Positions 35,426 to 54,060 of a DNA stretch of 64,000 nucleotides are shown here, piece after piece. The DNA is from Candidatus Omnitrophota bacterium. GTDB taxonomy: Bacteria; Omnitrophota; Gorgyraeia; Zapsychrales; Fredricksoniimonadaceae. The position numbers and the translations under genes are program-made. The notes under the pieces were generated by a model. The model had not been told where the DNA came from and ran no database searches. It worked only from the letters and a program-made list of their open reading frames with translations. The stretch is from the NCBI GenBank assembly GCA_015233675.1, contig JADFXH010000002.1, positions 206,794 to 270,793 on the forward strand. The letters run 5' to 3'. Each line of letters opens with the position of its first letter. Within the stretch, counting starts at the first letter, position 1.

Positions 35426-35441
35426 TCTAACTATAGTGGTT

Positions 35442-38371: not shown

Positions 38372-38516
38372 TTACAATAATTTGTGAGCATGTGACTTAG
38401 TCTGTTCGGGTGAATGAATAGAGCAAATCACACACTTTATGGGCCTAGTGCCTTGGAAGACGGATAACATGGTTTTTTGTGCCTATGGTGATATACTAAA
38501 TAAGGGGATATATTAT

Positions 38517-39107
38517 ATGGACAGCCGAAAAGGGTTTACTTTAATAGAAATACTAGTGGTGATGATAATTATAGGGATTACGACTTCTTTTGCTTTGTAT
38601 AGTTGTAACTATCAGATAAACAAGGCAATAGCTAATGCTACCGGAAAGAATTTGTCAATGCTGGCACAGGCCCAGCAGATTTTTTATTTGAATCATGGGT
38701 ACTTTTGTAAAACGCAGGAAGGGGATGCCCATACGTTCCAAAATTCCACCCCTGCATTACCTAACTGCCAGTTGCTATATCCTGCCAGTACCTGTGGGGA
38801 TAATCTATTGACGCTCAATTGTAATCTGGGTTTGAATATTGTTGACACAAATTATACTTATAGGTGTTCATCAGATTATAGTAACTGCAAAGATCCACTA
38901 GTACAACACTTCGAGTGTGCGGCCATGAGTAATAATCAAAAAGAAGAGCTATACATTAAAAATTTTCCTGAAGCTTATCTTAATAATATTCCTAACCAAA
39001 TATTTTGCGACTACAGATCTAGCTGCAACAATGGAGCTCCCTGCGTAACTAGTGCCCAGTATTGCCCGGATACAAATGTATACCCATTGGGTACCGTGAT
39101 TCCTTAG
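38517..39107 (+). CDS. Type IV pilin-like protein, Cys-rich
   Basis: Prepilin leader and methylation motif MDSRKG-FTLIEILVVMIIIGI. 12 Cys in the globular part. RBS AAGGGGA upstream of ATG 38517. Confidence 0.85.
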   Translation: MDSRKGFTLIEILVVMIIIGITTSFALYSCNYQINKAIANATGKNLSMLAQAQQIFYLNHGYFCKTQEGDAHTFQNSTPALPNCQLLYPASTCGDNLLTLNCNLGLNIVDTNYTYRCSSDYSNCKDPLVQHFECAAMSNNQKEELYIKNFPEAYLNNIPNQIFCDYRSSCNNGAPCVTSAQYCPDTNVYPLGTVIP

Positions 39108-39297
39108 TTCCTCCCTTCAAGGCTTTATTATCAATTATCGACGGAAATCAAATATTATTCTATTTTTTTTGTCCTCCCGCCCTAACCGAGCTTATACTAT
39201 TGCAAATTTGATGCCTGACTGCCGCAGAGGGCGGCAGGCCGCCCCGCCAGGGGGCGGGAAAAAAGTACTTGTTTGGTGTTCTGAGAGAATCAACGAT

Positions 39298-39372
39298 GTC
39301 ATTCTGAGACCTCAGGGCGAAGGATCTTAAGACGCCTTAAGATTCCTCGTCGCTATCGCTCCTCAGAATGAC
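39298..39372. repeat. GTCATT...AATGAC palindromic element (full copy, GTCATTCTGAG subtype)
   Basis: GTCATTCTGAG...GGATCTTAAG-ACGC-CTTAAGATTCC...CTCAGAATGAC. Same length class (75 bp) and architecture as 19813-19888. Confidence 0.8.
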
Positions 39373-39423
39373 AAAGTTCTTTCAACTCGTTAAAGATTTA
39401 CGTTTTACTTTGTGATATTAAAT

Positions 39424-39452
39424 TTGACAAATAATCAATAATATGTTATGAT
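39424..39452 (+). promoter_or_regulatory. Sigma70-type promoter candidate for the T4SS operon
   Basis: TTGACA, a 17-nt spacer, then TATGAT. Bracketed by ATTTGAC (39422-39428) and GTCAAAT (39455-39461). Confidence 0.55.
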
Positions 39453-39480
39453 TCGTCAAATCTTCAATGATGTATCAAAA

Positions 39481-39630
39481 AGGGCGTTGGCCCGACCTAA
39501 TCAATGGAAAGGCTCATGGAATTTCAAGGAAGGGCGTTGGCCCGACCTAATCAATGGAAAGGCTCATGGAATTTCAAGGAAGGGCGTTGGCCCGACTTAA
39601 TCAATGGGAAAACTTAGTGGAATTATAGGG
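39481..39630. repeat. 3 x 50-bp head-to-tail tandem repeat in the T4SS operon leader
   Basis: AGGGCGTTGGCCCGACCTAATCAATGGAAAGGCTCATGGAATTTCAAGGA is identical at 39481-39530 and 39531-39580. The third copy (39581-39630) diverges after about 26 nt. Confidence 0.95.
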
Positions 39631-39644
39631 AAGGGGATGATGTT

Positions 39645-39959
39645 ATGAGAAATATGAAAATTTTTTTAGTTTTATCAGGGTTTATGATTTTTTTTGTTAG
39701 CAATGCATCCGCGACGACAAGTTCGCAAATTCTGGTGATGTCAAACCAATTATATCAAATCGCAAAAGATTTGACCACAGGGCTTTTCCCTACATCAGTC
39801 TTGCTCATTGCCATCGGCATGTGGGGATTTATTAACGCTTTCGGTAAAAGCATTGGCGATGGTATCCACCAACTAACAAATATCATTGCCGTAGGCGGAA
39901 TTGTATTTTTTGCTTCATCGTTGCTTGTCAACGCGGCTTTATTTTCAGCGCAAATGTAA
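39645..39959 (+). CDS. trbC: T4SS pilin, TrbC/VirB2-like
   Basis: 104 aa. Signal peptide (..FFVSNASA), then two hydrophobic helices. Sits immediately upstream of the VirB3/VirB4 homologues. Confidence 0.6.
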   Translation: MRNMKIFLVLSGFMIFFVSNASATTSSQILVMSNQLYQIAKDLTTGLFPTSVLLIAIGMWGFINAFGKSIGDGIHQLTNIIAVGGIVFFASSLLVNAALFSAQM

Positions 39960-39962
39960 AAT

Positions 39963-40280
39963 ATGATCAATCGTAAAAGAACCACACCTTTATTGCAAAG
40001 TTTGACCAAACCAATCCTGCTCTTAGGGGCAGAAAGAGAGAATATTATTCTTTTGGCCTGTCTTTCTTTAAGCCTTTGCACGGTTGGCAGGGATGTTTTG
40101 TCTCTAGTTTTGGCGTTATTAATATGGAGTATCGGGATAATCGCCAGCAGATTGACAGCCAAAGTTGACCCATGGGCCACAAAGGTATTCTTAAGGTCCC
40201 TTTTATACCGGAATTTTTATAGTGCTCGGGAAAGAATAAATACCCCCCAGTGTGTTTTAAGACGCAGCAGGAAAATTTAA
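39963..40280 (+). CDS. trbD: T4SS inner-membrane protein, TrbD/VirB3-like
   Basis: 105 aa. LLQSLTKPILLLGAERE followed by two TM. Position between the pilin and VirB4. Confidence 0.6.
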   Translation: MINRKRTTPLLQSLTKPILLLGAERENIILLACLSLSLCTVGRDVLSLVLALLIWSIGIIASRLTAKVDPWATKVFLRSLLYRNFYSARERINTPQCVLRRSRKI

Positions 40281-40281
40281 T

Positions 40282-42732
40282 ATGTTGCCTGTAAAGGAAT
40301 TCACAGAAGGTCCCGCGGGGTTTCCTTCATTGATCAATTATTTTGAATTTGTTGATGAAGGAGTCTTGTTTAACCGTGATGGAAGCCTCTTGGGCTGTTT
40401 TTATTTTTGCGGACCTGACATGGATTCTTCTTTAGGAGAAGAAGAGGATCAGATATCTTCTCAAATCCAGTCAATTTTTCAGAATTTTGGTAATGGCTGG
40501 TCCCTGCATGTGGATTTAATCAGGGTGCCCGCGATTGCGTATCCCCAAACGCATCATTTTAATAACCCGACCTCCATATTAATTGAAAAGCACCGGCGCG
40601 AGCGCTATGAAAAAGAAGGTGATCATTTTGAGAATATCTATGCTATCAGTCTTTGCTATCTTCCATCGGTTGTTGAAAATAAACTTATGAATAGTTTCTT
40701 CATCCAGAATGCCCAAAAAGATGAAGCTCCAAGCCTTGAGTTTATTATCGATGTTTTTAATCAAAAATTGAGCGAATTCCAGGGGAATATTTCAAATAAA
40801 ATACACATTATACGCATGAGCTCTGCTGAGATGATGACTTTTCTTAATCGATGTATCGCGGGTGTAAAGTCTGAAACTCCGCTCCCAAAGCCGCCTTGTT
40901 ACCTGAACCATTATTTGGGGGCGCATGAGTTTACCGGTGGGCATGAACCCATGGTTGATGATTATCATATCGGGGTCATCACACTGACTCAATTTCCCTT
41001 TGAAAGCTACTTCGGAATTCTAGATATTCTCTCAACACTTCAATTTGAATATAGATTCTCTTCAAGATTTCTTTTTTATGATCCCATTGATGCCCTTGGG
41101 GTCGTTGATGAATACCAGGGCAAATACTTAGGGATGAAATATTCCATAGGGCAAATGGTGATGGGCGCTTTTGGCAAAGATCCCCGCTTAAACCCTGATG
41201 CTGCAAATCGTTCGGTGTTAACGAAAATCGAGGAAACTAAAACAGCCCAGGAAGCTATTGAAATGGCCCAAGTGAATTATGGTTATGCGACCTTTGTGGT
41301 GGTGGTTCTTGACAGCAATAAAGCTGAATGTAAAAGGAAAATGGAATACATCAGGGACTTGTTAAATAACAACTGGTTCCCCTCTATTATAGAGAAGATG
41401 AATTCGATAGAGGCCTATCTTGGGAGTTTGCCGGGTGATACTTTGAAAAATATCCGGAAACCCTTCATTAATACCCGGAATCTGGCTGATATGCTTCCTT
41501 TGAGGGATGTTTGGGCAGGCGCGTTGCATAATCCCTGCCCCTATTATCTTAAGAATTCACCGCCTCTTTTTTATGCCGCAACAGATGGGACAACTCCTTT
41601 TAGATTTAATGTCCATGTGGGAGATGTCGGGCATAGCTTGATACTTGGGCCCACCGGAGCGGGTAAATCAGTCTTATTGTCCCACATTGCCAATTCCGCC
41701 TTGCGTTATGAAGGGGCACAAGTGTACATTTTCGACAAGGGCTATAGCCAATATGTCTTAACTCATGCGCTCAAAGGAGAGTTTTACGATATTTTGGGGG
41801 ATGATGACAATCTGGCGTTTTGCCCTTTAAGTAATTTGGATGATCTTGCCCAGCAAAAATGGGCTTGCGGCTGGGTTGAAAGGATTGTTTCTCTGCAAGG
41901 GGTTGTCATAAATCCGGCCATTCGTGCCGCTATTGAAGGGGCCATTCGTGATACCAGTAAATCCCTGTCAAAAACCATGTCGGATTTTTATTTAAACCTT
42001 CAACATGATGAAATCAAAGAAGCTCTAAAACCTTTTGTTCAGATCAAAGAGGGGTATATGTCTTCCCTATTAGATGCCAGGGAAGACGGGTTTAAAAAAG
42101 GCAGATTTCAAACTTTTGAAATTTCAAATTTGATGGGGCTGGACAACAGATTAAGCACTCCTGTTTTGCTTTATTTATTTCATAAGATCCAATGCTCCTT
42201 AGATGGGAGCCCGACCTTTATAATCATCGATGAAGGTTGGTTGATCATGCTGCACGAAACATTTATGACCTATTGGATAGAATTCTTGAGGACAATCAGA
42301 AAGAATAATGCCTGTGTGCTTTTAGCTACCCAGAGCCTTTCGGATATCGTCAATTCACCGTATGTTAATTTTATCAATGAAAGTTGTTTTACTAAAGTCT
42401 TTTTGCCTAACCCTGCGGCAAGAGAAGCGGATAATAAAATGTTTTACGAGGCTTTTGGGCTTAATGAACGGCAAATTGAGATCATCAGTGAAGCGATACG
42501 TAAAAAACACTATTACGTGACTGCCCGTGATGTGGGCAATCGTTTAATTGATTTGGGATTAAAAAATTTAGAACTTGTCTTTTATGGGGCTGGAACAACA
42601 CTACAGGAGAGACAAAAGGTTAAAGAATTCAGGAAAAATTATGGGGACGATTGGGTGGCCAAGTGGCTGGAAGATAAGGGACTGGCCAGCCATGCTCAAG
42701 AATGGATGGCGATCAAAGGAAGCCGGCCATGA
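40282..42732 (+). CDS. trbE: T4SS ATPase TrbE/VirB4
   Basis: 816 aa. Walker A ILGPTGAGKS, Walker B FIIIDEGW, LATQSLSD motif. Confidence 0.9.
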   Translation: MLPVKEFTEGPAGFPSLINYFEFVDEGVLFNRDGSLLGCFYFCGPDMDSSLGEEEDQISSQIQSIFQNFGNGWSLHVDLIRVPAIAYPQTHHFNNPTSILIEKHRRERYEKEGDHFENIYAISLCYLPSVVENKLMNSFFIQNAQKDEAPSLEFIIDVFNQKLSEFQGNISNKIHIIRMSSAEMMTFLNRCIAGVKSETPLPKPPCYLNHYLGAHEFTGGHEPMVDDYHIGVITLTQFPFESYFGILDILSTLQFEYRFSSRFLFYDPIDALGVVDEYQGKYLGMKYSIGQMVMGAFGKDPRLNPDAANRSVLTKIEETKTAQEAIEMAQVNYGYATFVVVVLDSNKAECKRKMEYIRDLLNNNWFPSIIEKMNSIEAYLGSLPGDTLKNIRKPFINTRNLADMLPLRDVWAGALHNPCPYYLKNSPPLFYAATDGTTPFRFNVHVGDVGHSLILGPTGAGKSVLLSHIANSALRYEGAQVYIFDKGYSQYVLTHALKGEFYDILGDDDNLAFCPLSNLDDLAQQKWACGWVERIVSLQGVVINPAIRAAIEGAIRDTSKSLSKTMSDFYLNLQHDEIKEALKPFVQIKEGYMSSLLDAREDGFKKGRFQTFEISNLMGLDNRLSTPVLLYLFHKIQCSLDGSPTFIIIDEGWLIMLHETFMTYWIEFLRTIRKNNACVLLATQSLSDIVNSPYVNFINESCFTKVFLPNPAAREADNKMFYEAFGLNERQIEIISEAIRKKHYYVTARDVGNRLIDLGLKNLELVFYGAGTTLQERQKVKEFRKNYGDDWVAKWLEDKGLASHAQEWMAIKGSRP

Positions 42733-43427
42733 GACTCCTTTTATGGATATTATTAATCATTGGAATTTTTACCCCCACCTCCCAAGCTCTAGACGTAGCA
42801 ACAGAACATACCCAGATTTTAAATAATATTGAACTTATCACAGAGAACTTACGCCAACTGCAAAGCTTATATAACCAGATAGAGATGATAAAAAATCAGG
42901 TGGAAGGCCTTAAGTCTGTTGCAACATATCACAACGGCTTTAGTGACACGGATTCGTTGAGAGACACATTAACTGATCTCATCAACGAGGGGATGTCTCT
43001 TTCTGATCAAACCCAAAGTGTATTAAACACTATGCAGCAGGAGTCAAAAAATTTGACGACTAACGGGACAATGGTTGATCAGGAAAATTCATTAGTCACA
43101 GGCACAATGAATATTGTTGAGAATGCCTTAAATAGAGCCAAAGAGCAAAGGCAATCATATCAGCAGGAAATGAATTCCGTCAACGTGTTAATGGCCAAAA
43201 ATAATCAATCTGCAGGGCAGACGCAGGCATTGCAAACTTTAAATGAGCTTACGGCGTTAACCATTCCGCAAATGCAATTAACGCGTGAATTATTAAGTGA
43301 ACAGATTGCGATACAAGCCGCGATGATTAACAAAGAAAATCAGGAAAAGCAGGACCTGACCAACAAGATGGATCAGATAATCCATCCTATTGATAATAAC
43401 AGCAGTAGTTTTGATTTAGGGAGTTAA
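42729..43427 (+). CDS. trbJ: T4SS TrbJ/VirB5-like secreted coiled-coil protein
   Basis: Signal peptide ending SQA-LDV. N-terminal VATEHTQILNNIELITENLRQLQSLYNQIEMIKNQ is typical of TrbJ. ATGA overlap with trbE. Confidence 0.55.
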   Translation: MRLLLWILLIIGIFTPTSQALDVATEHTQILNNIELITENLRQLQSLYNQIEMIKNQVEGLKSVATYHNGFSDTDSLRDTLTDLINEGMSLSDQTQSVLNTMQQESKNLTTNGTMVDQENSLVTGTMNIVENALNRAKEQRQSYQQEMNSVNVLMAKNNQSAGQTQALQTLNELTALTIPQMQLTRELLSEQIAIQAAMINKENQEKQDLTNKMDQIIHPIDNNSSSFDLGS

Positions 43428-44629
43428 TGGTGGATCCGGTTGCTGTTTCTATATTTAACCAACTGTTAGGCCAATATAATGGCAGTATTTCTGCTATACA
43501 ATCGGGAAGTATTGATATTGCCAAAGAATTGTTTAATGCTATTGCGCTAGTTTCAGTCGCTGTATTAGGCATCAATCGGTTATTGAGCAGGAATGTTGAC
43601 ATGGTTGAGTCAAACATAGAGTTAATAAGATTATTGATCTATCTTAACGTCTTCTATCTTTTTATAAGCAGGTATGACCAATTTTTGCCCTTGATCTTTA
43701 ATTCGTTTAAAGCGGCCGGTATTTATATGGGCGGCAAGGCTGGCGGCTATAGTTTGTCAACTAATCCCGGTAGTATTATAAACATCGGTGTAAGCATAGC
43801 TTCAAAGATACTCAATGCGGCTAAAAACCAGACTTCACTAGCCAATATTGGTTTAAGCCTGATTGCCGTAGTTGCCGCGTTGGTTGTTTTGTATTGTTTT
43901 GGAATAATAGCCATTGAACTTATTTTAATTGATATAGGCAGCCGGATTATTTTAGCAGGAGGGATTTTTCTATTAGCTTTCGCGGGTTCATCATGGACCA
44001 GGGAATACGCGGAACACTATGTGCATACCTTTTTTCACCTTGGCGTCAAAATGCTTTTTGTATATATTCTGGTTGGAATAGGAGCAGGGGTCAGCAGTCA
44101 TTGGACAAAAATCCTGGATAATATCCCTATAGGCCAAATCATAGAATACTATATCGCGGTCATCATGGCATCGCTTGTGTATTACAAAATTTGCCAAAAG
44201 CTGCCGGACCAAGCAGTGGTTTATTTTACCGGTAGGTTATCGATGAATTATGAAACGGCCTCTACTATAAATGCCGTTGTCAAAGATGTTGCCAAAATAG
44301 CTAAATCAGCAGTCGGCGGGGTGCCTGCAATAGTAGGCATGACTAAAGCTGTGGGCGCGGCAAGACAGGCAGTTAAAACATCACTGGAAAGTCAGGGGGA
44401 AAAAGATAATCCGTTAAATACAGGATTTGAAATCATCAAGACGCTTGGAGCGGCTAAGCAAGAAGTAAAACAAGAGGCATGGGACAGGAAAGTCAGCGAC
44501 ACCATGGGAGGGAAAATGGCAAAAGATATTTTGGACGGGATTCCAAAGCCTAAAAGAGAAACAAGAAAAAGTACTAAAAAAAACCCTGGCGGTAATTCTA
44601 ATAATGCCTCGACGGATTATGCGATATGA
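43427..44629 (+). CDS. trbL: T4SS TrbL/VirB6-like polytopic membrane protein
   Basis: About 6-7 TM with a hydrophilic K-rich C-terminal tail. Position after TrbJ, as in trb operons. Confidence 0.6.
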   Translation: MVDPVAVSIFNQLLGQYNGSISAIQSGSIDIAKELFNAIALVSVAVLGINRLLSRNVDMVESNIELIRLLIYLNVFYLFISRYDQFLPLIFNSFKAAGIYMGGKAGGYSLSTNPGSIINIGVSIASKILNAAKNQTSLANIGLSLIAVVAALVVLYCFGIIAIELILIDIGSRIILAGGIFLLAFAGSSWTREYAEHYVHTFFHLGVKMLFVYILVGIGAGVSSHWTKILDNIPIGQIIEYYIAVIMASLVYYKICQKLPDQAVVYFTGRLSMNYETASTINAVVKDVAKIAKSAVGGVPAIVGMTKAVGAARQAVKTSLESQGEKDNPLNTGFEIIKTLGAAKQEVKQEAWDRKVSDTMGGKMAKDILDGIPKPKRETRKSTKKNPGGNSNNASTDYAI

Positions 44630-45291
44630 ATTCAAAAAGCCCGGATCCTTACATTAAAGCCAGAAAAGAATATGATGAGATTACGCATAATATTAACGCA
44701 TCAAAACAAAATTGGCAGCGCCTTAGTTTTGTATTAGGGCTCGCCTTGATCATCAGCATCGCCAGTAATATTTTTACGATTAATAAAGCGCATGTTATTC
44801 CTTATATTGTTCAGGTTGACAATTTGGGAAGGGCACAGGCAACCATTGAAGCTAAAGAAATGCCGTTAAGTGATGAGAGGATAATTAAAGCTTTTGTGTA
44901 CCAATACATTGATATGGCCCGCTCTGTTTTATCGGACCCGGAAAGCTTGAGAAAAGATTTGGCCCAGGTTTATCAGGAGTCTATTAAATCCGTGCAAAGC
45001 AATTTTCTGGATGTTTATTACAAGGATAACAACCCCTTTGATTATGCGCAAAATAAGGGTACCCGTCATATCGAATTATTGGTTTTTTTAAAAGAAGCGG
45101 AAAATACTTATTCTGTGGAATGGCGCGAAATAGAGAGAAACTATGATAATCAGGTTTTGGGTGAGGCTCATTATAAAGCGTTGATTTCTGTCATTCAAAT
45201 TCCACATTCCAATGAGGACCAATTCAGAGAAAATCCGTTAAATCCATTTGGTTTGTATGTGACTTCATTATCATGGTCAAAATTAGCGTAA
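44626..45291 (+). CDS. trbF: T4SS TrbF/VirB8-like protein
   Basis: DPYIKARKEYDE..NWQRLSF + TM + VIPYIVQVDNLG ... ENPLNPFGLYVTSLSWS matches the remembered TrbF pattern. Confidence 0.75.
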   Translation: MNSKSPDPYIKARKEYDEITHNINASKQNWQRLSFVLGLALIISIASNIFTINKAHVIPYIVQVDNLGRAQATIEAKEMPLSDERIIKAFVYQYIDMARSVLSDPESLRKDLAQVYQESIKSVQSNFLDVYYKDNNPFDYAQNKGTRHIELLVFLKEAENTYSVEWREIERNYDNQVLGEAHYKALISVIQIPHSNEDQFRENPLNPFGLYVTSLSWSKLA

Positions 45292-45303
45292 TAGGAGACT
45301 AAC

Positions 45304-46299
45304 ATGAACAATAGAATTAATTTTTTTAAAGCGGAGTCATTGCGCGGAGTGCAGTTTTTAATAGTTCTCACAAGCATGGCATTAAGCGGTTGTGCCAGTG
45401 ATTCCGGTAAAATGGATATAAGAAGTGAGCAGCCTTTAATTCAAATACCGGTCAATGAGCCAGCGCCTCAAATAAAATCGGCGAGCAGCGATGACATAGG
45501 TTTTGAAGATATCAGCCTGTCTGCCAAGAAAAGATTGCAGGTGTTGACAAACAAGATGGAAATTGACAAAGAAACGGACAATTATGTTAACAACGGCCAG
45601 GCGGCCGTGATTACGAGGCCTGACGGGACGATATTGTTCCCTTATGGGCTGGCGCAGATTCATTTAACTGCCAAAAGAATGATGTATAGTAAAATAATTC
45701 TGCAAGAAGGCGAGAAAATAATGAGTGCCGCAGCCGGAGATACGACTCGGTGGAACATTTTGCCAAATTATATCGGGAACAGCGCAACATATACGCCAAT
45801 TATTTTAGTCAAGCCGTTTATGGGGGGCTTACAAACCAGTTTATCCATTATTACAGATAAGCGTGATTATGATATTACCGTCCAATCGGTGGATTCCGGC
45901 GATTATATGCCTCGAGCCGGTTTTTATTACCCTCAGGATAAAGCCGATGCCGTCAATGTCGGATTGCCGCCTGACAAAATTGAAAACAATGAAAGTAAAC
46001 AGCCAAAAATTAACATTGAAAACATTAAATACAATTACCGGATCAAAGGGGATCCATCGCTCAGCTGGTTTCCAACGAGGATTTTTGAAGATGGTAATAA
46101 AGTATTTATCAGGATGTCAGATCATGTGGACCGGTCTCAATTGCCGATTTTTATGATGATTGACCATAGTGGCCAGCCCGAAGTAGTTAATTACCGCTAT
46201 TTTAAACCGTATTTTGTCGTTGATACAATTTTCGACCGGGGAGTACTTATTTTAGGAACGGATAAATACAAACAGGTTGTTAAATTAATTCGAGTTTAA
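45304..46299 (+). CDS. trbG: T4SS TrbG/VirB9-like outer-membrane lipoprotein
   Basis: Lipobox MALSGCAS. C-terminal NYRIKGDPSLSWFPTRIFEDGNKVFIRM is typical of VirB9. Confidence 0.75.
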   Translation: MNNRINFFKAESLRGVQFLIVLTSMALSGCASDSGKMDIRSEQPLIQIPVNEPAPQIKSASSDDIGFEDISLSAKKRLQVLTNKMEIDKETDNYVNNGQAAVITRPDGTILFPYGLAQIHLTAKRMMYSKIILQEGEKIMSAAAGDTTRWNILPNYIGNSATYTPIILVKPFMGGLQTSLSIITDKRDYDITVQSVDSGDYMPRAGFYYPQDKADAVNVGLPPDKIENNESKQPKINIENIKYNYRIKGDPSLSWFPTRIFEDGNKVFIRMSDHVDRSQLPIFMMIDHSGQPEVVNYRYFKPYFVVDTIFDRGVLILGTDKYKQVVKLIRV

Positions 46300-46313
46300 A
46301 TAGTTTATTTATT

Positions 46314-47582
46314 ATGTTTAATCTAGAACCCCAGAAAATTGTACAAACTAATCGTCTGCCATTTTTAATAGGGCTCGCTGTCCTTGTGGCGGTGATGGGC
46401 GTGTTTATGTATAGGATTCAGATGAACCAGAAAGTGGCGATAGTGCAAAATAAACCCCGGCAGTCCATTGATATTTCTTCAAAGGCCCAGGAAGCAAGTT
46501 GGTTCAATGATGAAAAATTCAGAAACATAAAGATTATTCTTAAGGAGTCTTCCCTGCATAAGCCAACAGCACAGGAGATTGAGGCAAAGATTATTTCAAG
46601 CAGGGAGGTTGATTTAAAAAAACAGGAGATTGCAGATGAGTATGCGGCCAAACTGGAAATAAAAAAGATGGAGGATAAAAACAAAATTGAAGAAAAAAAG
46701 CTTGAGTTAGAAGCCATGAAGTCACCTTTGAGCATAGACATCCCATCCTTGCCGGGAACTAAAACAGTGGCTCAGGAGAAACAATCCGGCAAAGATAATT
46801 TAACAGGTAGTCTAAGTGAATTAATGAATATGGTTAAATCAGTTACAGGCGCCAAGATTCCTGCTCTCCCGGCGTTGGCAGGGGGCTTGGTTACAGGCAT
46901 AAACGATCAAGACGGGAAGCTGGCGTTCTTGAAAAAGGGTGAAGTGGATGATGATTATTTGGAACGTTCTAAAAAGAAACCCCGTTGCCCTTACGAAGTT
47001 AAGGCGGGCAGCTATATTCCCGCGGCCTTGATAACAGGGATCAATTCAGATTTGCCGGGGAGTGTGAATGCTCAAGTCACGGAGAATGTATATGATACAA
47101 CGACGGGCAATTATCTTTTAATCCCTCAGGGGGCCAAACTGGTCGGAGAATATAACAGTAATTTAACTTTTGGACAGAAGCGCGTACAGGTGGTATGGAA
47201 CAGAATCATATTTCCGGACGGCAAGAGTATTGATCTTGAAAAGATGCAAGGAGCGGACACAGCAGGCTATACGGGATTTCACGATAAGGTGGATAATCAC
47301 TATTTGAGGATTTATGGCAATGCGGCTTTGCTAAGCTTGATGGGGGCGGGATATGACATTTTAAATCGAAAGGCCGAGCAATCAACCGATCCCAGGGAGA
47401 CTGTCGCGGCAAGCGTCGGGCAAAAGTTATCGGATGTCAGCGGTCAGGCGCTCGAAAAGAATATGGATGTTCAGCCGACGCTAATCATTGATTCGGGGTA
47501 TAAATTCAAAATTATCGTTATGAAAGATATGGTTTTGGAAAATATTGAAGATGCTCAGGGAACACTCTCGTACACAAAATAA
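46314..47582 (+). CDS. trbI: T4SS TrbI/VirB10-like protein
   Basis: N-terminal TM. C-terminal GSYIPAALITGINSDLPGSVNAQV..LIPQGAKLVGEYNS..FGQKRVQVVWNRIIFPDG is the TrbI domain. Confidence 0.8.
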   Translation: MFNLEPQKIVQTNRLPFLIGLAVLVAVMGVFMYRIQMNQKVAIVQNKPRQSIDISSKAQEASWFNDEKFRNIKIILKESSLHKPTAQEIEAKIISSREVDLKKQEIADEYAAKLEIKKMEDKNKIEEKKLELEAMKSPLSIDIPSLPGTKTVAQEKQSGKDNLTGSLSELMNMVKSVTGAKIPALPALAGGLVTGINDQDGKLAFLKKGEVDDDYLERSKKKPRCPYEVKAGSYIPAALITGINSDLPGSVNAQVTENVYDTTTGNYLLIPQGAKLVGEYNSNLTFGQKRVQVVWNRIIFPDGKSIDLEKMQGADTAGYTGFHDKVDNHYLRIYGNAALLSLMGAGYDILNRKAEQSTDPRETVAASVGQKLSDVSGQALEKNMDVQPTLIIDSGYKFKIIVMKDMVLENIEDAQGTLSYTK

Positions 47583-48531
47583 ACTGAAACAAGATTTAGG
47601 AGAGCTTGTTTTATCAGCTCTTTTGGATGAAGAAATTTATGAGGTTTTACTTAATCCCGACGGTATTTTGTGGGTTGATGGTTATCGAGGCAAACGTGAA
47701 TATGGAGCGATGACTGCGTCGGCAGCCAAAAATCTGATCAATACGGTGGCCAGCGTTTCAGATGAAACAGTCACAAATAAGAATCCAAGTTTTGCGGGTG
47801 AGTTATGGGTTGAGATCAAAGAGGAACTTAGATTATTCCGGTTTCAGGCTTTTATCCCTCCGGTGGTGACGTATCCGGCTTTTGCTATCAGAAAACGTGC
47901 CATCCAAGTGATCCCTCTGCAAGATTACGTTAAAGATGAAATCATCACCCGAGATCAGGAAAGGATAATCGAAAAGTCAATTGAGCAAAGAATGTCCATT
48001 TTGGTTGTGGGGGGGACACAATCAGGTAAAACAACATTCTGTAACGCGATTTTAAATTGTATAGCCAAAACTCATCCGAATGACAGGGTGATCATTATTG
48101 AAGACACCCAGGAGCTTAAATGCGATGTTAAAGACTCGGTGATGATGCGCGCCTCGCCTTTCAGGAGCATCAATGATTTGATCTTTGATGCGATGCGCAT
48201 GAGGCCCGACAGGATCATTATCGGGGAGGTTCGCGGCAAAGAAGCCCATTCCATGATCAAGGCCTTCAATACCGGCCATCCCGGCGGGCTAAGCACCGTC
48301 CATGCAAACTCTGCCGCAAGCGGGCTTTTAAGACTGGAGCAATTGATTATGGAAGCAGGAGTGCCTCCCGTGCCTGAAGCCATTGCCGAAGCGGTCAACG
48401 TCCTTGTTTATATCCAAAAGACCAATAAGGGCAAAAAAGGCAGACAGGTGACTTCGATTGTAAAGCTGAATGGGTATGATAAAATAAAAGGATATCTGAC
48501 AGAAGAGTGGGGTAGATTGGTCATAAGATAA
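47551..48531 (+). CDS. trbB: T4SS ATPase TrbB/VirB11
   Basis: Walker A VGGTQSGKTT, RIIIGEVRG, HPGGLSTVHANSA. Overlaps the trbI end by about 32 nt. Confidence 0.85.
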   Translation: MLREHSRTQNKLKQDLGELVLSALLDEEIYEVLLNPDGILWVDGYRGKREYGAMTASAAKNLINTVASVSDETVTNKNPSFAGELWVEIKEELRLFRFQAFIPPVVTYPAFAIRKRAIQVIPLQDYVKDEIITRDQERIIEKSIEQRMSILVVGGTQSGKTTFCNAILNCIAKTHPNDRVIIIEDTQELKCDVKDSVMMRASPFRSINDLIFDAMRMRPDRIIIGEVRGKEAHSMIKAFNTGHPGGLSTVHANSAASGLLRLEQLIMEAGVPPVPEAIAEAVNVLVYIQKTNKGKKGRQVTSIVKLNGYDKIKGYLTEEWGRLVIR

Positions 48532-48579: not shown

Positions 48580-49620
48580 TCAACAGGTTTCTTCAAATCT
48601 ACCCTTCCCTTGACAGGTCGCTTTGCCCTTGTCATCTCTTGAGAGGGTTATTTTATCGAGAAACGTGCCATTTTTGAGATGAGCGCTTATTGAAAAACTC
48701 CTGCTTTTATCCGCTGGTTTCGTATTGAACTGATAATCAAAAGATTTTGTAGAAGATAAATCCATACGGCCGCAAGAAGACTCTTGCCCAGGATGTCTGT
48801 AGAAGCACGTTTCTATATTACTCTTGAACACGCCTAACTGACTGAGCGCTTCCATCGATTCTGAATGTAACGAAAGTTTTGGTGGATTTATAAGCAAGTA
48901 GATGCCTGAGCCTAATAACAGCACGGTATAGGAAATAATGTTCATTATTAAAGCTGCCCTGCCGATTTTTTGTCCTTTATCCGGATACATACGGGCTATA
49001 ACATTTCCTTCCACTATGACAGAAGCTATAAAGACAAAGCATACCAAAAGGATAGCAAACGGAATACTTGCGGGGAAAAAATCATTATTTCCTGAACATA
49101 TCGGAATGACACTTGCTAGCCCGCCGACAACAACACCTATGGCGATAAATGTGCTTTGACATAAACCTTTTCGTTGCGCAAAGTTTTCCAGAAAACCGGT
49201 TCTGCTGGCAAAAACTTTAAATGACTTGTGTAACAAAATAATGGCTATTGACCAGCAGGGGATAAAAAGTAGTATTGTCAATGGAGTCAGAAAGAAAACT
49301 AGCCAACAACCAAGAAGAGTTGAAAATGCGTTTGCCAGAAATGATGCCCAGAAGGCCTGAATATAACCTAAATTCAGGGCCCTTCTTAAGACCAATCCTT
49401 CAATTACAGTGACGGTGATTAAACTTAATCCGCACGTCATCACTGCAAATGCGATAGGGAATAGCATCACCACCAAGACAGGGATGCCAAAATTAGCCTC
49501 GGCTACTTGACTAAAGAAAAGCAAGAAGAATAGCGCCAACGGGATTAAAAATATTTGCTGAAAGTCATCATTGCTGCGCCTCGGTTCTTTGCCGGAGGTT
49601 TCGGGATGGGTTCTAGTCAT
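48580..49620 (-). CDS. Polytopic membrane protein with Cys-containing soluble C-terminal domain
   Basis: 346 aa. About 8 TM, then a ~100-aa hydrophilic domain with 4 Cys. Overlaps the upstream gene by 4 nt. Confidence 0.55.
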   Translation of the reverse strand: MTRTHPETSGKEPRRSNDDFQQIFLIPLALFFLLFFSQVAEANFGIPVLVVMLFPIAFAVMTCGLSLITVTVIEGLVLRRALNLGYIQAFWASFLANAFSTLLGCWLVFFLTPLTILLFIPCWSIAIILLHKSFKVFASRTGFLENFAQRKGLCQSTFIAIGVVVGGLASVIPICSGNNDFFPASIPFAILLVCFVFIASVIVEGNVIARMYPDKGQKIGRAALIMNIISYTVLLLGSGIYLLINPPKLSLHSESMEALSQLGVFKSNIETCFYRHPGQESSCGRMDLSSTKSFDYQFNTKPADKSRSFSISAHLKNGTFLDKITLSRDDKGKATCQGKGRFEETC

Positions 49621-51176
49621 TGTCCTGTTTTCCTTTCGTGGGCGTTAGGTGGTGTTGTGACGGGAAGCTTTCTCGTAAGGAGAATAAGCAAAACAACCGC
49701 GGGAAGCAATCGACAGGTAAAAATCCCTCCCCCCGTTAACAAGATTTCTCTATTAATGAGATGATGAGCCATTAGCGCCCGAAGGATCAGTCCAAAAACA
49801 ATGAGTGCTCCTGACAGCCGAAAGATCTGTGGATAAAATTTTTTTTGATCATGTCTTGTCCCTAACCTCGCATGATTGATGTGTGCATGTGTCAGGTTGA
49901 CTAATAATTGAACCCATAGGCCGGGCGAGCATAATTCAACAATAAAAATTACAATGAGGCCCCAGGAGGGGACAAGGGCCGTTGAGTATTGAATAAACAG
50001 GTGCGGGCGAAGGAAGATAAAAAGGCAAGGCAGGTAATTGAACCAGGTTTGAATAATATATGCAGGGATGCCCAATACATAATCCGGCCGGGAGATATAT
50101 TCTCCTATGGCGTTACCAACATTAACGATATCAAGGATCGCAATAAAACCAAAGCTTAAATAAAAGGACCTCATCAGTGAGGGATGCCGCTCTTTTGTCC
50201 AGTAGTTGGCAATTAACATGACACAGATAATGAATATGATGATCGTTGAACAGACGAAAGGCGCTAATACATGGCATAGATTTAACATAAAAAAGACAAC
50301 AGCGCTCACAAAAAATATCAGGGACAGAGACCGTTTATTCGGGTAAGGGCATAAAAGCAGGTTCAATACAAGAAAAAGTCCCAGCCCGGCAAAAATTTTC
50401 CCGTAATGGAATTTTAATGCTGTTAACTTTACTGGTTGTCCAGGAATTCCCTCTGTTTGCCGACACCAGTGGATTGTTTCTGCTAAAGTGTTATAGTCAA
50501 ACACCTCAATTTGGTGGTTGGCAGTCGGTGAGAGGAAAAGACGGCTAGCCTGTTGGTCAAAAGAACTATGGATTGGGGGCATCATCTGCCTCATTTCTGA
50601 TGGCGGATGCAGTTGGTCATAAAGGCCGGCACTGAATAAGAAACGGTTTTGCCAAGCAATCGTCCTATCGGTGTTCATGCCAAGGCAGATGACAGGGTGA
50701 ATATTCGGATCGTTAAGTCCAGCCAAAATGACCGCAGATCCCCCCATCGAATGTCCGACTATTCCAATGGCAGCATCTGCGGGATTGGGCCATTGTTTGC
50801 GTAAGAAAGACACGGCTGCCAGCACATCTTTCGCATTGCCCCCTTGCGATGCCGCTCGGTGGTATGATTCCGCATATCCCCCTATATCAAACGTGAGCAC
50901 CATAAGGCCGTTATCGGCCAATGTTTGTGCCATGAGGTCCATGTATTCTTTGTTCCAAATAACGCCATGGACCAGGACGATGCCTAAATTAGATTTATTC
51001 TTTGGGAGGTAAAGTTTGCCTTGGAGAGTCGCCCCGGGTGATGGAGCTGAGAATTTAACATATGTCTTTGAAACTTCGCTGGGGGAAGAAAGTATAAGAA
51101 ATAAGCCGGTGATCAAAGTTAAAAAAGAAAAAAAGTATGCATATTGTTTCCTCATGGGGAATGCGCTTTTAAACAA
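49617..51176 (-). CDS. Fusion of exported alpha/beta hydrolase domain and polytopic membrane domain
   Basis: N-terminal anchor. Hydrolase motifs LVHGV.., nucleophile elbow VGHSMGGS. Then about 8 TM. The start may be ATG 51155 rather than TTG 51176. Confidence 0.65.
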   Translation of the reverse strand: MFKSAFPMRKQYAYFFSFLTLITGLFLILSSPSEVSKTYVKFSAPSPGATLQGKLYLPKNKSNLGIVLVHGVIWNKEYMDLMAQTLADNGLMVLTFDIGGYAESYHRAASQGGNAKDVLAAVSFLRKQWPNPADAAIGIVGHSMGGSAVILAGLNDPNIHPVICLGMNTDRTIAWQNRFLFSAGLYDQLHPPSEMRQMMPPIHSSFDQQASRLFLSPTANHQIEVFDYNTLAETIHWCRQTEGIPGQPVKLTALKFHYGKIFAGLGLFLVLNLLLCPYPNKRSLSLIFFVSAVVFFMLNLCHVLAPFVCSTIIIFIICVMLIANYWTKERHPSLMRSFYLSFGFIAILDIVNVGNAIGEYISRPDYVLGIPAYIIQTWFNYLPCLFIFLRPHLFIQYSTALVPSWGLIVIFIVELCSPGLWVQLLVNLTHAHINHARLGTRHDQKKFYPQIFRLSGALIVFGLILRALMAHHLINREILLTGGGIFTCRLLPAVVLLILLTRKLPVTTPPNAHERKTGQ

Positions 51177-53990: not shown

Positions 53991-54060
53991 TACAGTTGTG
54001 AAGCAACCGGTACATCTCTGGAATATTTTAAAAGCATGTCTAAAGAAGGGGAGGTTTGTA

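What the first reader, a model, noticed from the sequence alone, without database searches (positions are those of the whole stretch)
39645..48531. Compact Trb/VirB-type type IV secretion locus with no coupling protein, relaxase or integration/replication genes in reach
Seen: nine co-directional, tightly packed genes with ATGA or 1-nt overlaps at 42729, 43427 and 44626. They encode:
- TrbC/VirB2-like pilin
- VirB3-like protein
- VirB4 (GPTGAGKS, IIDEGW)
- TrbJ/VirB5-like protein
- TrbL/VirB6-like protein
- TrbF/VirB8-like protein
- lipoprotein TrbG/VirB9
- TrbI/VirB10
- TrbB/VirB11 (GGTQSGKTT)

TrbB is placed last rather than first. No ORF in the 64 kb resembles a VirD4/TraG coupling ATPase, a MOB relaxase, a VirB1 transglycosylase, VirB7, an integrase, or Rep/Par proteins. 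The flanks are housekeeping and type IV pilus genes (pilin at 38517, PilMNOPQ at 51401-55473).

Established: VirB-type systems lacking a coupling protein are known as dedicated protein exporters or effector translocators (Bordetella Ptl, Brucella VirB) and as DNA-uptake machines (Helicobacter ComB).

Inference: this is probably not a conjugation module. It is more likely a chromosomal contact-dependent export or DNA-exchange machine. Candidate cargo or partners in the same window include the exported J-domain giant protein (2453-6754) and the convergent membrane hydrolase pair (48580-51176).
Basis: partly seen in the sequence, partly recalled or inferred. Interest (0 to 1): 0.7.

Follow-up and report, generated by a model that had tools for sequence, protein, structure and literature searches.

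The report
Domesticated coupling-protein-less Trb secretion machine
A complete nine-gene Trb/VirB-type type IV secretion operon sits in the chromosome of an uncultured Omnitrophota bacterium. It descends from plasmid-like conjugation systems of the same phylum but has lost its DNA-coupling ATPase, and at least 21 related genomes keep it under strong purifying selection, so it most likely serves cell-to-cell contact rather than self-transfer.

Summary
Window 39645-48531 (+) holds nine packed genes, trbC-D-E-J-L-F-G-I-B, with intact ATPase motifs. Nothing in the 64 kb resembles a coupling protein (T4CP), relaxase, integrase, Rep/Par protein, tRNA or att repeat.

The host is a Candidatus Omnitrophota bacterium.

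- **Loss of the T4CP.** All 21 distinct loci of the window's TrbE clade (76-89% identity) lack a T4CP. All 6 assessable loci of the two sister clades (70-75%) carry a 709-840 aa T4CP between trbF and trbG, plus a small extra ORF and plasmid-like neighbours. By parsimony the T4CP was lost once.
- **Stable chromosomal residence.** The T4CP-less operon keeps its own conserved promoter. It occupies the same chromosomal site in at least 8 genomes. dN/dS is 0.02-0.17 with dS saturated, and the operon retains a plasmid-like Arg-codon bias.
- **Variable cassette.** trbJ-trbL (VirB5/VirB6) form swappable cassettes. Two near-identical genomes share 90-96% in seven Trb proteins but only 60% and 51% in TrbJ and TrbL.

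The best reading is a domesticated T4CP-independent contact machine, closest in logic to Bartonella Trw. I rate it a new member of a known kind, of moderate interest.

The parts
39424..39452 (+). Conserved sigma-70-type promoter of the trb operon (TTGACA-17-TATGAT with an extended -10).
   Evidence: It matches the consensus at 11 of 12 positions. The same ~40-nt block, AAATTTGACAAATAATCAATAnTATGTTATgATTC, precedes trbC in all T4CP-less relatives. A related block precedes trbC in the T4CP+ elements.
39480..39629 (+). A 50-bp unit repeated three times in tandem, inserted in the trbC 5' leader. It is specific to this window.
   Evidence: Detected. It is absent from all 172 fetched loci. It has no Rfam match and no unusual fold (z = -0.13). 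In relatives the promoter lies 35-45 nt from the ATG.
39645..39959 (+). trbC, the VirB2-type pilin. It has a signal peptide ending ASA followed by TTSS, and two hydrophobic segments.
   Evidence: Pfam TrbC E = 1.2e-4, below the gathering score. It is 74-87% identical across T4CP-less loci. dN/dS is 0.03-0.14.
39963..40280 (+). trbD (VirB3).
   Evidence: Pfam VirB3 27.5 bits. NCBIfam TrbD 8e-16.
40282..42732 (+). trbE, the VirB4 ATPase. Walker A is GPTGAGKS and Walker B is DEGW.
   Evidence: NCBIfam TrbE 5e-206. The motifs are present. Relatives are 76-89% identical in Omnitrophota. dN/dS is 0.04-0.07.
42729..43427 (+). trbJ (VirB5-like). The N-terminal ~60 residues are conserved and the rest is hypervariable. 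It is the first half of the swappable cassette.
   Evidence: NCBIfam TrbJ_Ti 2.3e-11, below the cut-off. It has no Pfam or PDB sequence match. The cassette types are discordant with the core genes.
43427..44629 (+). trbL (VirB6). Segments between ~aa 90 and 240 and the C-terminal tail from ~aa 270 are hypervariable. It is the second half of the cassette.
   Evidence: Pfam TrbL 2.3e-26. TIGR02783 is above its cut-off. Variability profile.
44626..45291 (+). trbF (VirB8).
   Evidence: Pfam VirB8 2e-33. dN/dS is 0.02-0.06. Only 12 nt separate it from trbG, which is the site where sister clades carry the T4CP.
45304..46299 (+). trbG (VirB9), predicted to be a lipoprotein (LSGC lipobox). It may compensate for the missing VirB7/TrbH.
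   Evidence: Pfam CagX 6.8e-43. The lipobox is conserved in all relatives.
46314..47582 (+). trbI (VirB10).
   Evidence: Pfam TrbI 6.4e-65. NCBIfam IncP-type TrbI 8e-77.
47545..48531 (+). trbB, the VirB11 ATPase. Its start is probably the ATG at 47551. Walker A is GGTQSGKT, and the IIIGEVR and HPG motifs are present.
   Evidence: TIGR02782 TrbB_P 6e-98, above the cut-off. Motifs and start codon.

Best explanation
The locus is a chromosomally fixed ('domesticated') derivative of a Trb/VirB-type mating-pair-formation system that circulates on plasmid-like or integrative elements of Omnitrophota.

In the ancestor of the window's clade, the T4CP gene between trbF and trbG was lost. So were a small ORF between trbE and trbJ and the replication/maintenance backbone. 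The nine structural and ATPase genes and their own promoter were kept. This part is shown by comparative evidence.

The rest is inference. The operon probably still builds the envelope-spanning channel: TrbD/E/L/F in the inner membrane, lipidated TrbG plus TrbI in the outer-membrane core, and the TrbB and TrbE motors. It probably also builds a TrbC pilus with TrbJ at the tip. Without a T4CP it cannot recruit a relaxase-DNA complex or cytoplasmic substrates by the canonical route.

Its most likely job is therefore contact with other cells, meaning adhesion or target recognition, possibly coupled to T4CP-independent transfer. The recombining trbJ-trbL cassette would set the contact specificity, or allow escape from pilus-specific phages. 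The closest functional analogue is the T4CP-less Trw system of Bartonella.
For: **Machine complete and intact.** All nine genes are present with intact motifs.

**T4CP distribution.**
- 21 distinct loci of the clade with at least 76% TrbE identity all lack a T4CP.
- 6 distinct loci of the two successive sister clades all carry one between trbF and trbG.
- Those mobile-type loci also carry a Rep-initiator (RPA, RepA_C or HTH_36), UmuDC, SRAP, DUF932 and toxin-antitoxin genes.
- They also carry a 45-86 aa ORF that is absent from every T4CP-less locus.

**Vertical chromosomal residence.**
- The same flanks (aminotransferase, dCMP deaminase, response regulator, hydrolase, GH5, transglutaminase, then trbC) occur in the window, L019, L115, L134, L095, L135, L127 and L124. 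Flank identity is 68-94% at the amino-acid level.
- There is no integrase, tRNA or att repeat.

**Selection.** dN/dS is 0.02-0.17 for all nine genes, with dS of 0.9 to over 4. The promoter is conserved.

**Trace of mobile ancestry.**
- The RSCU correlation with flanking genes is 0.69, against 0.90-0.97 for control blocks.
- The Arg AGR codon fraction is ~0.5-0.6 in both the T4CP-less and the T4CP+ operons, against ~0.2-0.4 in chromosomal flanks.

**Contact-specificity signal.**
- TrbJ and TrbL fall into discrete types that are discordant with the core genes.
- L007 and L121 share 90-96% in seven Trb proteins but 60% in TrbJ and 51% in TrbL.

**Precedents.** T4CP-less systems that act as adhesive-pilus, exporter or uptake machines are reviewed in PMC12857230, section 20.
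Against: - No functional data of any kind are available, including expression, pili or partners.
- A T4CP or relaxase elsewhere in these genomes was not excluded. Only 10-kb flanks and an indirect contig-length check were possible.
- VirB5 and VirB6 are the fastest-evolving T4SS parts in ordinary conjugative plasmids too, so variability alone does not prove an adhesion role.
- Unlike Trw, there is no tandem amplification of pilin or VirB5 genes.
- Average dN/dS of trbJ and trbL is still well below 1 (0.09-0.17).
- The retained plasmid-like codon usage could also mean continuing exchange with mobile relatives.
Confidence: 0.55

Rival explanations
1. The operon is still a conjugation apparatus, used in trans. 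The chromosomal operon supplies the mating-pair-formation machine. A T4CP plus relaxase encoded elsewhere, in the genome or on co-resident mobilizable elements, couples DNA to it. The split Tra1/Tra2 regions of IncP plasmids and T4CP-carrying mobilizable plasmids work this way.
For: - Trb-type systems often encode the T4CP and relaxase apart from trb. In Aminobacter pMET2, for example, the trb operon has no T4CP inside it.
- T4CP-bearing relatives with 70-75% TrbE identity occur in the same metagenome projects. For example, L129 (T4CP+) comes from the Ga0302320 sample together with the T4CP-less L134, L137, L109 and L127.
- Omnitrophota T4CP homologues exist on other contigs.
- The retained plasmid-like codon usage fits this reading.
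Against: - In the immediate sister clades the T4CP lies inside the operon. It was cleanly removed in all 21 loci of the window's clade, which argues for loss of that function rather than relocation.
- None of the 120 best T4CP homologues lies on the 1.29 Mb, 282 kb or 146 kb contigs that carry T4CP-less operons.
- No relaxase, T4CP or Rep gene was found in the 64-kb window or in the 10-kb flanks of the T4CP-less loci whose called-gene tables were read. Homology scans of all the T4CP-less loci found no T4CP.
Confidence: 0.2
2. The operon is a T4CP-independent protein exporter or translocator of the Bordetella Ptl or Brucella VirB type. Sec-exported periplasmic substrates would be pushed out or into a target cell in a two-step route. 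Candidates are members of the abundant Omnitrophota family with a signal peptide, a conserved N-domain, a variable enzymatic middle and a conserved C-terminal motif; the window's J-domain giant at 2453-6754 belongs to this family.
For: - Precedents exist for two-step export without a T4CP (PMC12857230).
- Family members lie within 2.4 kb of the Trb operon and in the same orientation in L002, L013, L015, L107, L133 and L024.
- The family has an effector-like modular design, with middle domains including REC, HEAT, methyltransferase, HAD, LMW-PTP and DnaJ.
Against: - The adjacency is not significant: 4 hits in ~105 kb of near flank against 2 in ~154 kb of far flank, binomial P about 0.19, from the data.
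- The family is very abundant (~1 per 40 kb; 1532 hits). It also occurs on a 1.34 Mb contig that does not appear among the contigs carrying TrbE.
- In the window the giant is 33 kb away.
- No toxin or effector genes are conserved next to the operon.
- Ptl lacks VirB5, whereas TrbJ is retained here.
Confidence: 0.15
3. The operon is a ComB-like DNA-uptake machine for natural transformation or nucleotide scavenging.
For: It lacks a T4CP, as ComB does. Small-genome bacteria could benefit from DNA uptake.
Against: - ComB lacks VirB5 and VirB11 (PMC12857230). Both are present and conserved here.
- The window encodes a type IVa pilus assembly set, PilMNOPQ plus pilins. That is the usual uptake route.
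- NCBIfam ComB10 is a much weaker match for TrbI than IncP-type TrbI (1.6e-32 against 8e-77).
Confidence: 0.05
4. The operon is a decaying remnant of an integrated conjugative element or plasmid, without function.
For: - The T4CP, the small ORF and the backbone have been lost.
- Codon usage is atypical.
- Toxin-antitoxin modules are inserted in the trbF-trbG or trbG-trbI spacers of several relatives.
- A window-specific repeat is inserted in the leader.
Against: - All nine ORFs are intact in the window and in the other complete loci among the 21 distinct T4CP-less loci. Apart from the artefacts below, the one departure seen is a fused trbE-trbJ reading frame in L115, which was not followed up.
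- dN/dS is 0.02-0.17 at saturated dS.
- Promoter, motifs and lipobox are conserved.
- The only 'frameshifted' copy, L006, is a long-read assembly artefact of the intact L007. L099 shows a rearranged or chimeric gene order.
Confidence: 0.03

Closest known systems
Bartonella Trw type IV secretion system (a T4CP-less derivative of the plasmid R388 Trw conjugation system)
   Same: - It derives from a conjugative mating-pair-formation module.
- It is chromosomal and lacks VirD4.
- It retains VirB2-B6 and VirB8-B11 homologues, including VirB5 and VirB11.
- Its surface and pilus-associated components are the variable part.
- It is proposed to have kept pilus production while dropping translocation (PMC12857230).
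   Different: - Trw diversifies by tandem amplification of trwL (VirB2) and trwJ-I-H within one genome. Here there is one copy per genome, and the variation is allelic cassette exchange of trbJ-trbL between genomes.
- Sequence affinity here is to Trb (P-type) profiles rather than R388 Trw.
- There is no VirB1 or VirB7 homologue. TrbG itself is lipidated.
- The host is an uncultured environmental nanobacterium, and its partner is unknown.
IncP / Ti-plasmid Trb mating-pair-formation operon (trbB-C-D-E-J-K-L-F-G-H-I)
   Same: The best family matches for eight of the nine proteins are Trb models. The nearest cultured relatives are alphaproteobacterial repABC plasmids, at up to 41% TrbE identity.
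   Different: - trbB is last, which is the VirB order.
- There is no trbK (entry exclusion) and no trbH (VirB7).
- There is no quorum-sensing traI.
- No T4CP or relaxase was found.
- The context is a chromosome.
T4CP-bearing Trb elements of Omnitrophota (loci L010/L129/L174, L014/L132, L091/L119, L093, L117, L128)
   Same: - The gene order and the promoter block are the same.
- TrbG is lipidated in both.
- The Arg-codon bias is shared.
- TrbE identity is 70-75%, and these are the sister clades in the TrbE tree.
   Different: - They carry a 709-840 aa T4CP between trbF and trbG.
- They carry a 45-86 aa ORF between trbE and trbJ.
- They carry a backbone of Rep-initiator, UmuDC, SRAP, DUF932 and toxin-antitoxin genes.
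- No Pfam relaxase was seen within 10 kb even there.
Bordetella Ptl, Brucella VirB and Helicobacter ComB (other systems lacking VirD4)
   Same: There is no coupling protein and the location is chromosomal.
   Different: - Ptl and ComB lack VirB5, and ComB also lacks VirB11. Both are present here.
- No toxin operon is adjacent, unlike Ptl.
- Brucella has VirB1, VirB7 and VirB12 (PMC12857230).
T4SS of epibiotic Patescibacteria (Southlakia epibionticum)
   Same: It is a conjugation-derived T4SS kept as a chromosomal system in an ultra-small, host-dependent bacterium. It has sequence-divergent pilus components (PMC12857230, section 22).
   Different: That system is of the monoderm type, retains a VirD4-like protein and has six VirB2-like pilins. 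Its essentiality has been shown experimentally, whereas nothing is shown here.

Membership tests
Trb/VirB-type (MPF-T, P-type) type IV secretion system | A VirB4-family ATPase with intact Walker A and Walker B motifs | tested here: met
   NCBIfam TrbE 5e-206. The motifs GPTGAGKS and DEGW are present.
Trb/VirB-type (MPF-T, P-type) type IV secretion system | The core set of VirB2, B3, B6, B8, B9, B10 and B11 homologues in one cluster | tested here: met
   Pfam and NCBIfam matches for each. TrbC is below the Pfam gathering score but is conserved and pilin-like.
Trb/VirB-type (MPF-T, P-type) type IV secretion system | A VirB5/TrbJ pilus-tip protein | tested here: inconclusive
   The only support is NCBIfam TrbJ_Ti at 2.3e-11, below its cut-off, plus the gene's position in the operon. 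There is no Pfam or PDB sequence match.
Self-transmissible conjugative element (plasmid or ICE) | A type IV coupling protein (VirD4/TraG/TrwB) | tested here: not met
   None in the 64 kb. None in 21 distinct related loci. The whole genome could not be searched.
Self-transmissible conjugative element (plasmid or ICE) | A relaxase (MOB) and oriT | tested here: not met
   No relaxase domain in any ORF of the window. oriT cannot be tested without a relaxase.
Self-transmissible conjugative element (plasmid or ICE) | An integrase or replication/partition genes, att repeats or a tRNA target | tested here: not met
   No such domains were found. There is no tRNA and no bracketing direct repeats. The flanks are syntenic housekeeping genes.
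T4CP-less domesticated T4SS of the Bartonella Trw kind | Descent from a conjugative mating-pair-formation module, with loss of the T4CP | tested here: met
   The sister clades carry a T4CP inside the operon, and the clade-wide distribution fits a single loss.
T4CP-less domesticated T4SS of the Bartonella Trw kind | Tandem amplification of variable pilin and VirB5 genes | tested here: not met
   trbC and trbJ are single-copy in every locus. Variation is by allelic trbJ-trbL cassettes between genomes.
T4CP-less domesticated T4SS of the Bartonella Trw kind | An adhesion function towards a host cell | not testable with these tools
   This needs imaging or genetics in enrichment cultures.
Helicobacter ComB DNA-uptake system | Composition VirB2-4 and VirB6-10, without VirB5, VirB11 and VirD4 | tested here: not met
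   TrbJ and TrbB are present and under purifying selection. ComB composition is from PMC12857230.
Bordetella Ptl toxin exporter | No VirB5, and a cognate toxin operon adjacent | tested here: not met
   TrbJ is present. No conserved cargo genes lie next to the operon across syntenic loci.

The most novel reading that the evidence does not exclude
The T4CP-less Trb machine is the contact organelle through which this clade of ultra-small Omnitrophota recognises and exploits host or prey cells. Its swappable TrbJ-TrbL (VirB5/VirB6) cassettes would set partner specificity. It might deliver members of the large Omnitrophota family of Sec-exported modular proteins, which have a conserved N-domain, a variable enzymatic middle and a conserved GGIDLN...IKRDG...VPLP C-terminal motif. 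This would be an independent, diderm parallel to the essential T4SS of epibiotic Patescibacteria.
Probability: 0.15. Interest if true: 0.8.

Novelty: new member of a known kind. Interest (0 to 1): 0.55.

Why it matters
Omnitrophota are widespread, uncultured, mostly ultra-small bacteria suspected of host-dependent or predatory lifestyles. The published genomic evidence rests on Tad and type IVa pili, unusual ATPases and giant ORFs (PMC10066038). None of the Omnitrophota papers I opened mentions a T4SS of this kind.

This locus shows a clean, datable case of a conjugation machine becoming a chromosomal organelle. Both the 'before' state (T4CP-bearing elements) and the 'after' state (at least 21 genomes) are available for comparison. 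A recombining VirB5/VirB6 cassette marks the part that meets the outside world.

It gives a concrete target for metatranscriptomics, cryo-ET and enrichment work on how these cells touch their partners. It also adds an environmental, non-pathogen example to the short list of T4CP-less T4SSs.

Tried and rejected
- **Exact-protein look-up of the window's TrbE.** It is not on record, so the source genome could not be retrieved.
- **Remnants of the T4CP.** I searched the trbF-trbG and trbG-trbI inserts of L104, L115, L137, L126, L134 and L017. There are none; the inserts are toxin-antitoxin pairs.
- **Att-type repeats or a tRNA at the borders.** None were found.
- **The J-domain giant as cargo.**
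  - Its N-domain family is adjacent to Trb operons in several loci.
  - The family is very abundant, and the enrichment near the operon is not significant (P about 0.19).
  - An AlphaFold model of the N-domain (pLDDT 65.8) has no PDB fold match.
- **The hydrolase pair at 48580-51176 as partner.** It is not conserved in syntenic relatives, and the 346-aa protein has no Pfam match.
- **The leader tandem repeat as a regulatory RNA.** It has no Rfam match and no excess structure, and it is absent from relatives.
- **TrbJ against PDB sequences.** No match.
- **A Pfam relaxase or integrase around the T4CP-bearing relatives.** None within 10 kb, so their relaxase remains unidentified.
- **Literature.** The search terms used turned up no description of an Omnitrophota Trb system.

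Full report
**1. What is in the window**

The region 39645-48531 holds nine co-directional ORFs. Pfam and NCBIfam identify them as follows:

| Gene | Coordinates |
|---|---|
| TrbC/VirB2 | 39645-39959 |
| TrbD/VirB3 | 39963-40280 |
| TrbE/VirB4 | 40282-42732 |
| TrbJ/VirB5-like | 42729-43427 |
| TrbL/VirB6 | 43427-44629 |
| TrbF/VirB8 | 44626-45291 |
| TrbG/VirB9 | 45304-46299 |
| TrbI/VirB10 | 46314-47582 |
| TrbB/VirB11 | 47545 or 47551-48531 |

TrbC is below the Pfam gathering score. TrbJ is supported only by NCBIfam TrbJ_Ti (2.3e-11, below its cut-off) and by its position. The others are solid matches.

The ATPase motifs are intact. TrbG carries a lipobox, LSGC.

I scanned essentially every ORF of at least 100 aa in the 64 kb against Pfam. 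The content is housekeeping:
- Mla transport, GreA, thioredoxin, PanD, Def, LipA;
- two-component proteins;
- GH5, transglutaminase-like and alpha/beta-hydrolase proteins;
- PilMNOPQ, RNase G, L21, Obg, ProBA, NadD, PGM and PlsC.

No T4CP, relaxase, integrase, Rep or Par domain appears anywhere. There is no tRNA, and no direct repeats bracket the operon.

One detail needs reframing. 'trbB last' is the ordinary VirB2-to-VirB11 order. Compared with a Ti/IncP-type trb operon (Aminobacter pMET2: trbB-C-D-E-J-K-L-F-G-H-I), this locus lacks trbK and trbH and has trbB at the end.

**2. Whose genome**

The best TrbE homologues (76-89% identity) come from metagenomes and from MAGs named Candidatus Omnitrophota or Omnitrophica. 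The window's upstream genes are syntenic, at 75-91% amino-acid identity, with the Omnitrophota MAG contig JABDFL010000014 (L019). Cultured plasmids reach only about 41% TrbE identity.

**3. The decisive comparison**

I collected about 60 distinct related loci from assemblies, GTDB genomes and JGI metagenomes. I annotated them with the window's proteins and a T4CP as queries.

- **The window's clade.** Twenty-one distinct loci with at least 76% TrbE identity contain both trbF and trbG. All have exactly the nine-gene operon and no T4CP.
- **The sister clades.** Six distinct assessable loci at 70-75% identity all carry a 709-840 aa T4CP between trbF and trbG: L010/L129/L174, L014/L132, L091/L119, L093, L117 and L128. 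The T4CP matches Pfam T4SS-DNA_transf, TrwB_AAD_bind and TraG-D_C.
- **Phylogeny.** In an NJ tree of 74 TrbE sequences these T4CP-bearing loci form the two successive sister clades of the window's clade. Parsimony therefore places a single T4CP loss at the base of the window's clade. In the window only 12 nt separate trbF from trbG.
- **Other mobile-type features.** These loci carry a 45-86 aa ORF between trbE and trbJ that is absent from every T4CP-less locus. They also carry a recurrent backbone: an RPA, RepA_C or HTH_36 replication-initiator, UmuDC, SRAP, DUF932, toxin-antitoxin pairs and SpoVG.
- **A caveat on the relatives.** No Pfam relaxase or integrase was seen within 10 kb of the T4CP even in those elements. 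Their relaxase is therefore unidentified, and 'conjugative' is an inference from the T4CP plus the backbone.

**4. The T4CP-less operon is a stable, selected chromosomal resident**

- **Synteny.** The window, L019, L115, L134, L095, L135, L127 and L124 share the same upstream neighbourhood: aminotransferase, dCMP deaminase, response regulator, alpha/beta-hydrolase, GH5 and transglutaminase-like, then trbC. Flank proteins are 68-94% identical, comparable to the Trb proteins themselves. Other genomes form two or three further synteny groups.
- **Selection.** Against seven T4CP-less relatives, dS is saturated (0.9 to over 4) and dN/dS is 0.02-0.17 for all nine genes.
- **Apparent decay is artefact.** The only fragmented copy, L006, is a long-read contig whose short-read twin L007 is intact.
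- **Promoter.** A near-consensus promoter (39424-39452, 11 of 12 positions) sits in a ~40-nt block conserved in all T4CP-less loci. It is recognisable in the mobile relatives too. Conservation stops immediately upstream of it.
- **Composition.**
  - GC barely differs from the flanks: 0.412 against 0.427.
  - Codon usage does differ. The RSCU correlation with flank genes is 0.69, against 0.90-0.97 for every same-sized block of flank genes.
  - The difference is driven by AGA/AGG arginine codons.
  - The same AGR bias (about 0.5-0.6) is found in the trb genes of all T4CP-less loci and of the T4CP-bearing elements. Chromosomal flanks use about 0.2-0.4.
  - This is a lasting trace of mobile ancestry, or of continuing exchange with mobile relatives.

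**5. A swappable VirB5/VirB6 cassette**

Among the closest T4CP-less loci, TrbE, F, G, I and B are uniformly 71-89% identical. TrbJ and TrbL fall into discrete types that cut across the core phylogeny and the synteny groups.

The clearest case is L007 against L121. Their flanks are 91-95% identical. TrbC, D, E, F, G, I and B are 90-96% identical, but TrbJ is 60% and TrbL 51%.

The window's cassette matches L001 and L126, not its syntenic neighbours L019 and L095. Variability starts about 60 residues into TrbJ. In TrbL it covers segments between about residues 90 and 240 and the tail from about residue 270. The first 60-90 residues and a central block (about residues 150-200) stay more conserved.

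This indicates recombinational replacement of the parts expected to face the pilus tip or channel exterior. Average dN/dS in the cassette remains below 0.2, so I claim allelic exchange, not proven positive selection.

**6. Mechanism**

*Shown.* The machine is complete and intact. The T4CP has been lost clade-wide. Residence is chromosomal and vertical. Selection is purifying. Cassette exchange occurs.

*Inferred.* The operon still assembles a Trb channel and a TrbC pilus tipped by TrbJ, powered by TrbE and TrbB. Without a T4CP it cannot process relaxosome-DNA by the canonical route. I therefore favour a contact function, meaning adhesion or recognition of partner cells, possibly with T4CP-independent transfer. 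This is on the model of Bartonella Trw, where a conjugation-derived T4CP-less system is thought to have kept pilus production and diversified its VirB2 and VirB5 components (PMC12857230, section 20).

*Rivals.*
- **Mating-pair-formation helper for conjugation in trans (0.2).** This could not be excluded, because only 10-kb flanks can be read. The one indirect test is that none of the 120 best T4CP homologues lies on the 1.29 Mb, 282 kb or 146 kb contigs that hold T4CP-less operons.
- **Two-step exporter of the Ptl or Brucella type (0.15).**
- **ComB-like DNA uptake (0.05).** ComB lacks VirB5 and VirB11, and both are conserved here.
- **Decay (0.03).** Contradicted.

**7.

*The hydrolase pair.* The pair at 48580-51176 is not conserved beside the operon. 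Syntenic relatives have MscS and PilT-like genes there.

*The J-domain giant at 2453-6754.* This is more interesting, but the link is unproven.
- Its N-terminal ~400 aa define a very large Omnitrophota family (1532 hits).
- Members have a signal peptide and a variable middle: REC, HEAT, methyltransferase, HAD, LMW-PTP, sigma54-AAA or DnaJ.
- About half of the full-length members also have a conserved ~65-aa C-terminal motif, GGIDLNxANLNLQIKRDGxGVPLP...IxGFxPxI.
- Members lie within 2.4 kb of Trb operons in six loci.
- However, the family density is about one per 40 kb. The enrichment near the operon is not significant: 4 in ~105 kb near flank against 2 in ~154 kb far flank, P about 0.19.
- Members also occur on a 1.34 Mb contig that does not appear among the contigs carrying TrbE.
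- The N-domain model (pLDDT 65.8) has no PDB fold match.

**8. Known or new**

T4CP-less T4SSs are an established category: Ptl, Brucella VirB, ComB and Trw (PMC12857230). Conjugation-derived T4SSs in ultra-small epibionts are known from Patescibacteria.

The Omnitrophota papers I opened do not discuss a Trb/VirB T4SS in this phylum, including the main comparative study, which used TXSScan. I therefore file the locus as a new member of a known kind. Three features are useful:
- both the mobile 'before' state and the domesticated 'after' state are sampled;
- the VirB5/VirB6 cassette is exchanged between genomes rather than amplified within one;
- VirB9 is lipidated and there is no VirB7 homologue.

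Interest is moderate (0.55). It would be high only if the machine proves to be the host-contact device of these nanobacteria.

Noticed in passing
window 39480-39629: A 50-bp unit (AAGGGCGTTGGCCCGACCTAATCAATGGAAAGGCTCATGGAATTTCAAGG) is repeated three times in tandem, between the conserved trb promoter and the trbC start codon. It lengthens the leader from ~40 nt in all relatives to ~190 nt. It is unique to this window, has no Rfam match and has no excess structure.
   Followed up: yes
window 2453-6754; also L002 11638-13920, L013 11271-13415, L015 3-2033, L024 19976-22334, L107 1255-4209, L121 2-3532, L133 10350-13510: The J-domain 'giant' belongs to a very large Omnitrophota-specific family (1532 hits). 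Members have a signal peptide, a conserved ~400-aa N-domain with no Pfam or PDB match, and a variable middle (REC, HEAT, methyltransferase, HAD, LMW-PTP, sigma54-AAA or DnaJ). About half of the full-length members also carry a conserved ~65-aa C-terminal motif, GGIDLNxANLNLQIKRDGxGVPLP...IxGFxPxI. The design resembles a polymorphic exported-effector family. Which secretion route it uses is unknown.
   Followed up: partly
L004 16162-16805; L019 12613-13111; L017 5213-5723; L104 12266-13538; L115 12819-13462; L134 15960-16690; L137 15059-15696: Toxin-antitoxin pairs have inserted repeatedly and independently into the trbF-trbG or trbG-trbI spacers of the T4CP-less operon in different genomes. 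The pairs are MazE/AbrB with PIN, RHH with ParE or RelE, and a nucleotidyltransferase type.
   Followed up: partly
window 39645-48531 against the rest; the same pattern in L001-L137: The trb genes use AGA/AGG for ~50-60% of arginine codons, whereas chromosomal flank genes use ~20-40%. The bias is shared by the T4CP-less operons and their T4CP-bearing mobile relatives, and it persists despite saturated synonymous divergence.
   Followed up: partly
window 35400-37274 and 38439-39107: A 624-aa ORF without any Pfam match and a 222-aa type IV pilin-like gene (N_methyl) are present in the window. They are absent from the syntenic position in L019 and L134, where GH5 and the transglutaminase-like gene directly precede trbC.
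   Followed up: no
window 38302-38371 and 39287-39383: Two REP/MITE-like palindromic elements lie in the intergenic regions upstream of the operon. One has 34-nt arms that are 91% complementary. The other is GTCATTCTGAG...CTCAGAATGAC. A related fragment lies upstream of trbC in L004.
   Followed up: no
L010 11307-11444, L014 12465-12668, L091 12465-12725, L094 9241-9396, L117 7624-7767, L021 5050-5202: A small conserved ORF (45-86 aa; motif Y[IL]xxLxxxxxxGYxxxLxxDNEKEFYxGMxxF) lies between trbE and trbJ. It occurs only in the mobile-type Trb loci and is lost together with the T4CP in the chromosomal clade. It has no lipobox and its function is unknown.
   Followed up: partly
L091 15602-20810 (= L119 6080-11288): One T4CP-bearing element carries two T4CP copies in tandem between trbF and trbG. 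The first is broken into four fragments and the second is intact (713 aa).
   Followed up: no
L008 661-9321 and L024 522-6233: In a distant Omnitrophota Trb clade (42-44% TrbE identity), a T2SS/type-IV-pilus-like cluster lies directly upstream of the T4CP-less Trb operon and in the same orientation. It contains a secretin, a GspE-like ATPase, GspF and a pilin. L008 also has an S26 (TraF/LepB-like) peptidase just downstream.
   Followed up: no
L006 against L007: The same locus appears with many frameshifts in a long-read contig (L006) and intact in a short-read contig (L007). Apparent pseudogenisation in such assemblies should not be read as decay. L093 shows the same kind of fragmentation.
   Followed up: yes
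L007 694-1821 (also L006 and L121); L010 2115-3170: Fic-domain proteins are encoded next to several Trb operons of this lineage. One is divergent from trbC in synteny group III, and another sits in the backbone of a T4CP-bearing element. Fic proteins are T4SS effectors in Bartonella, but they are also common toxin modules. None is present in the window.
   Followed up: no
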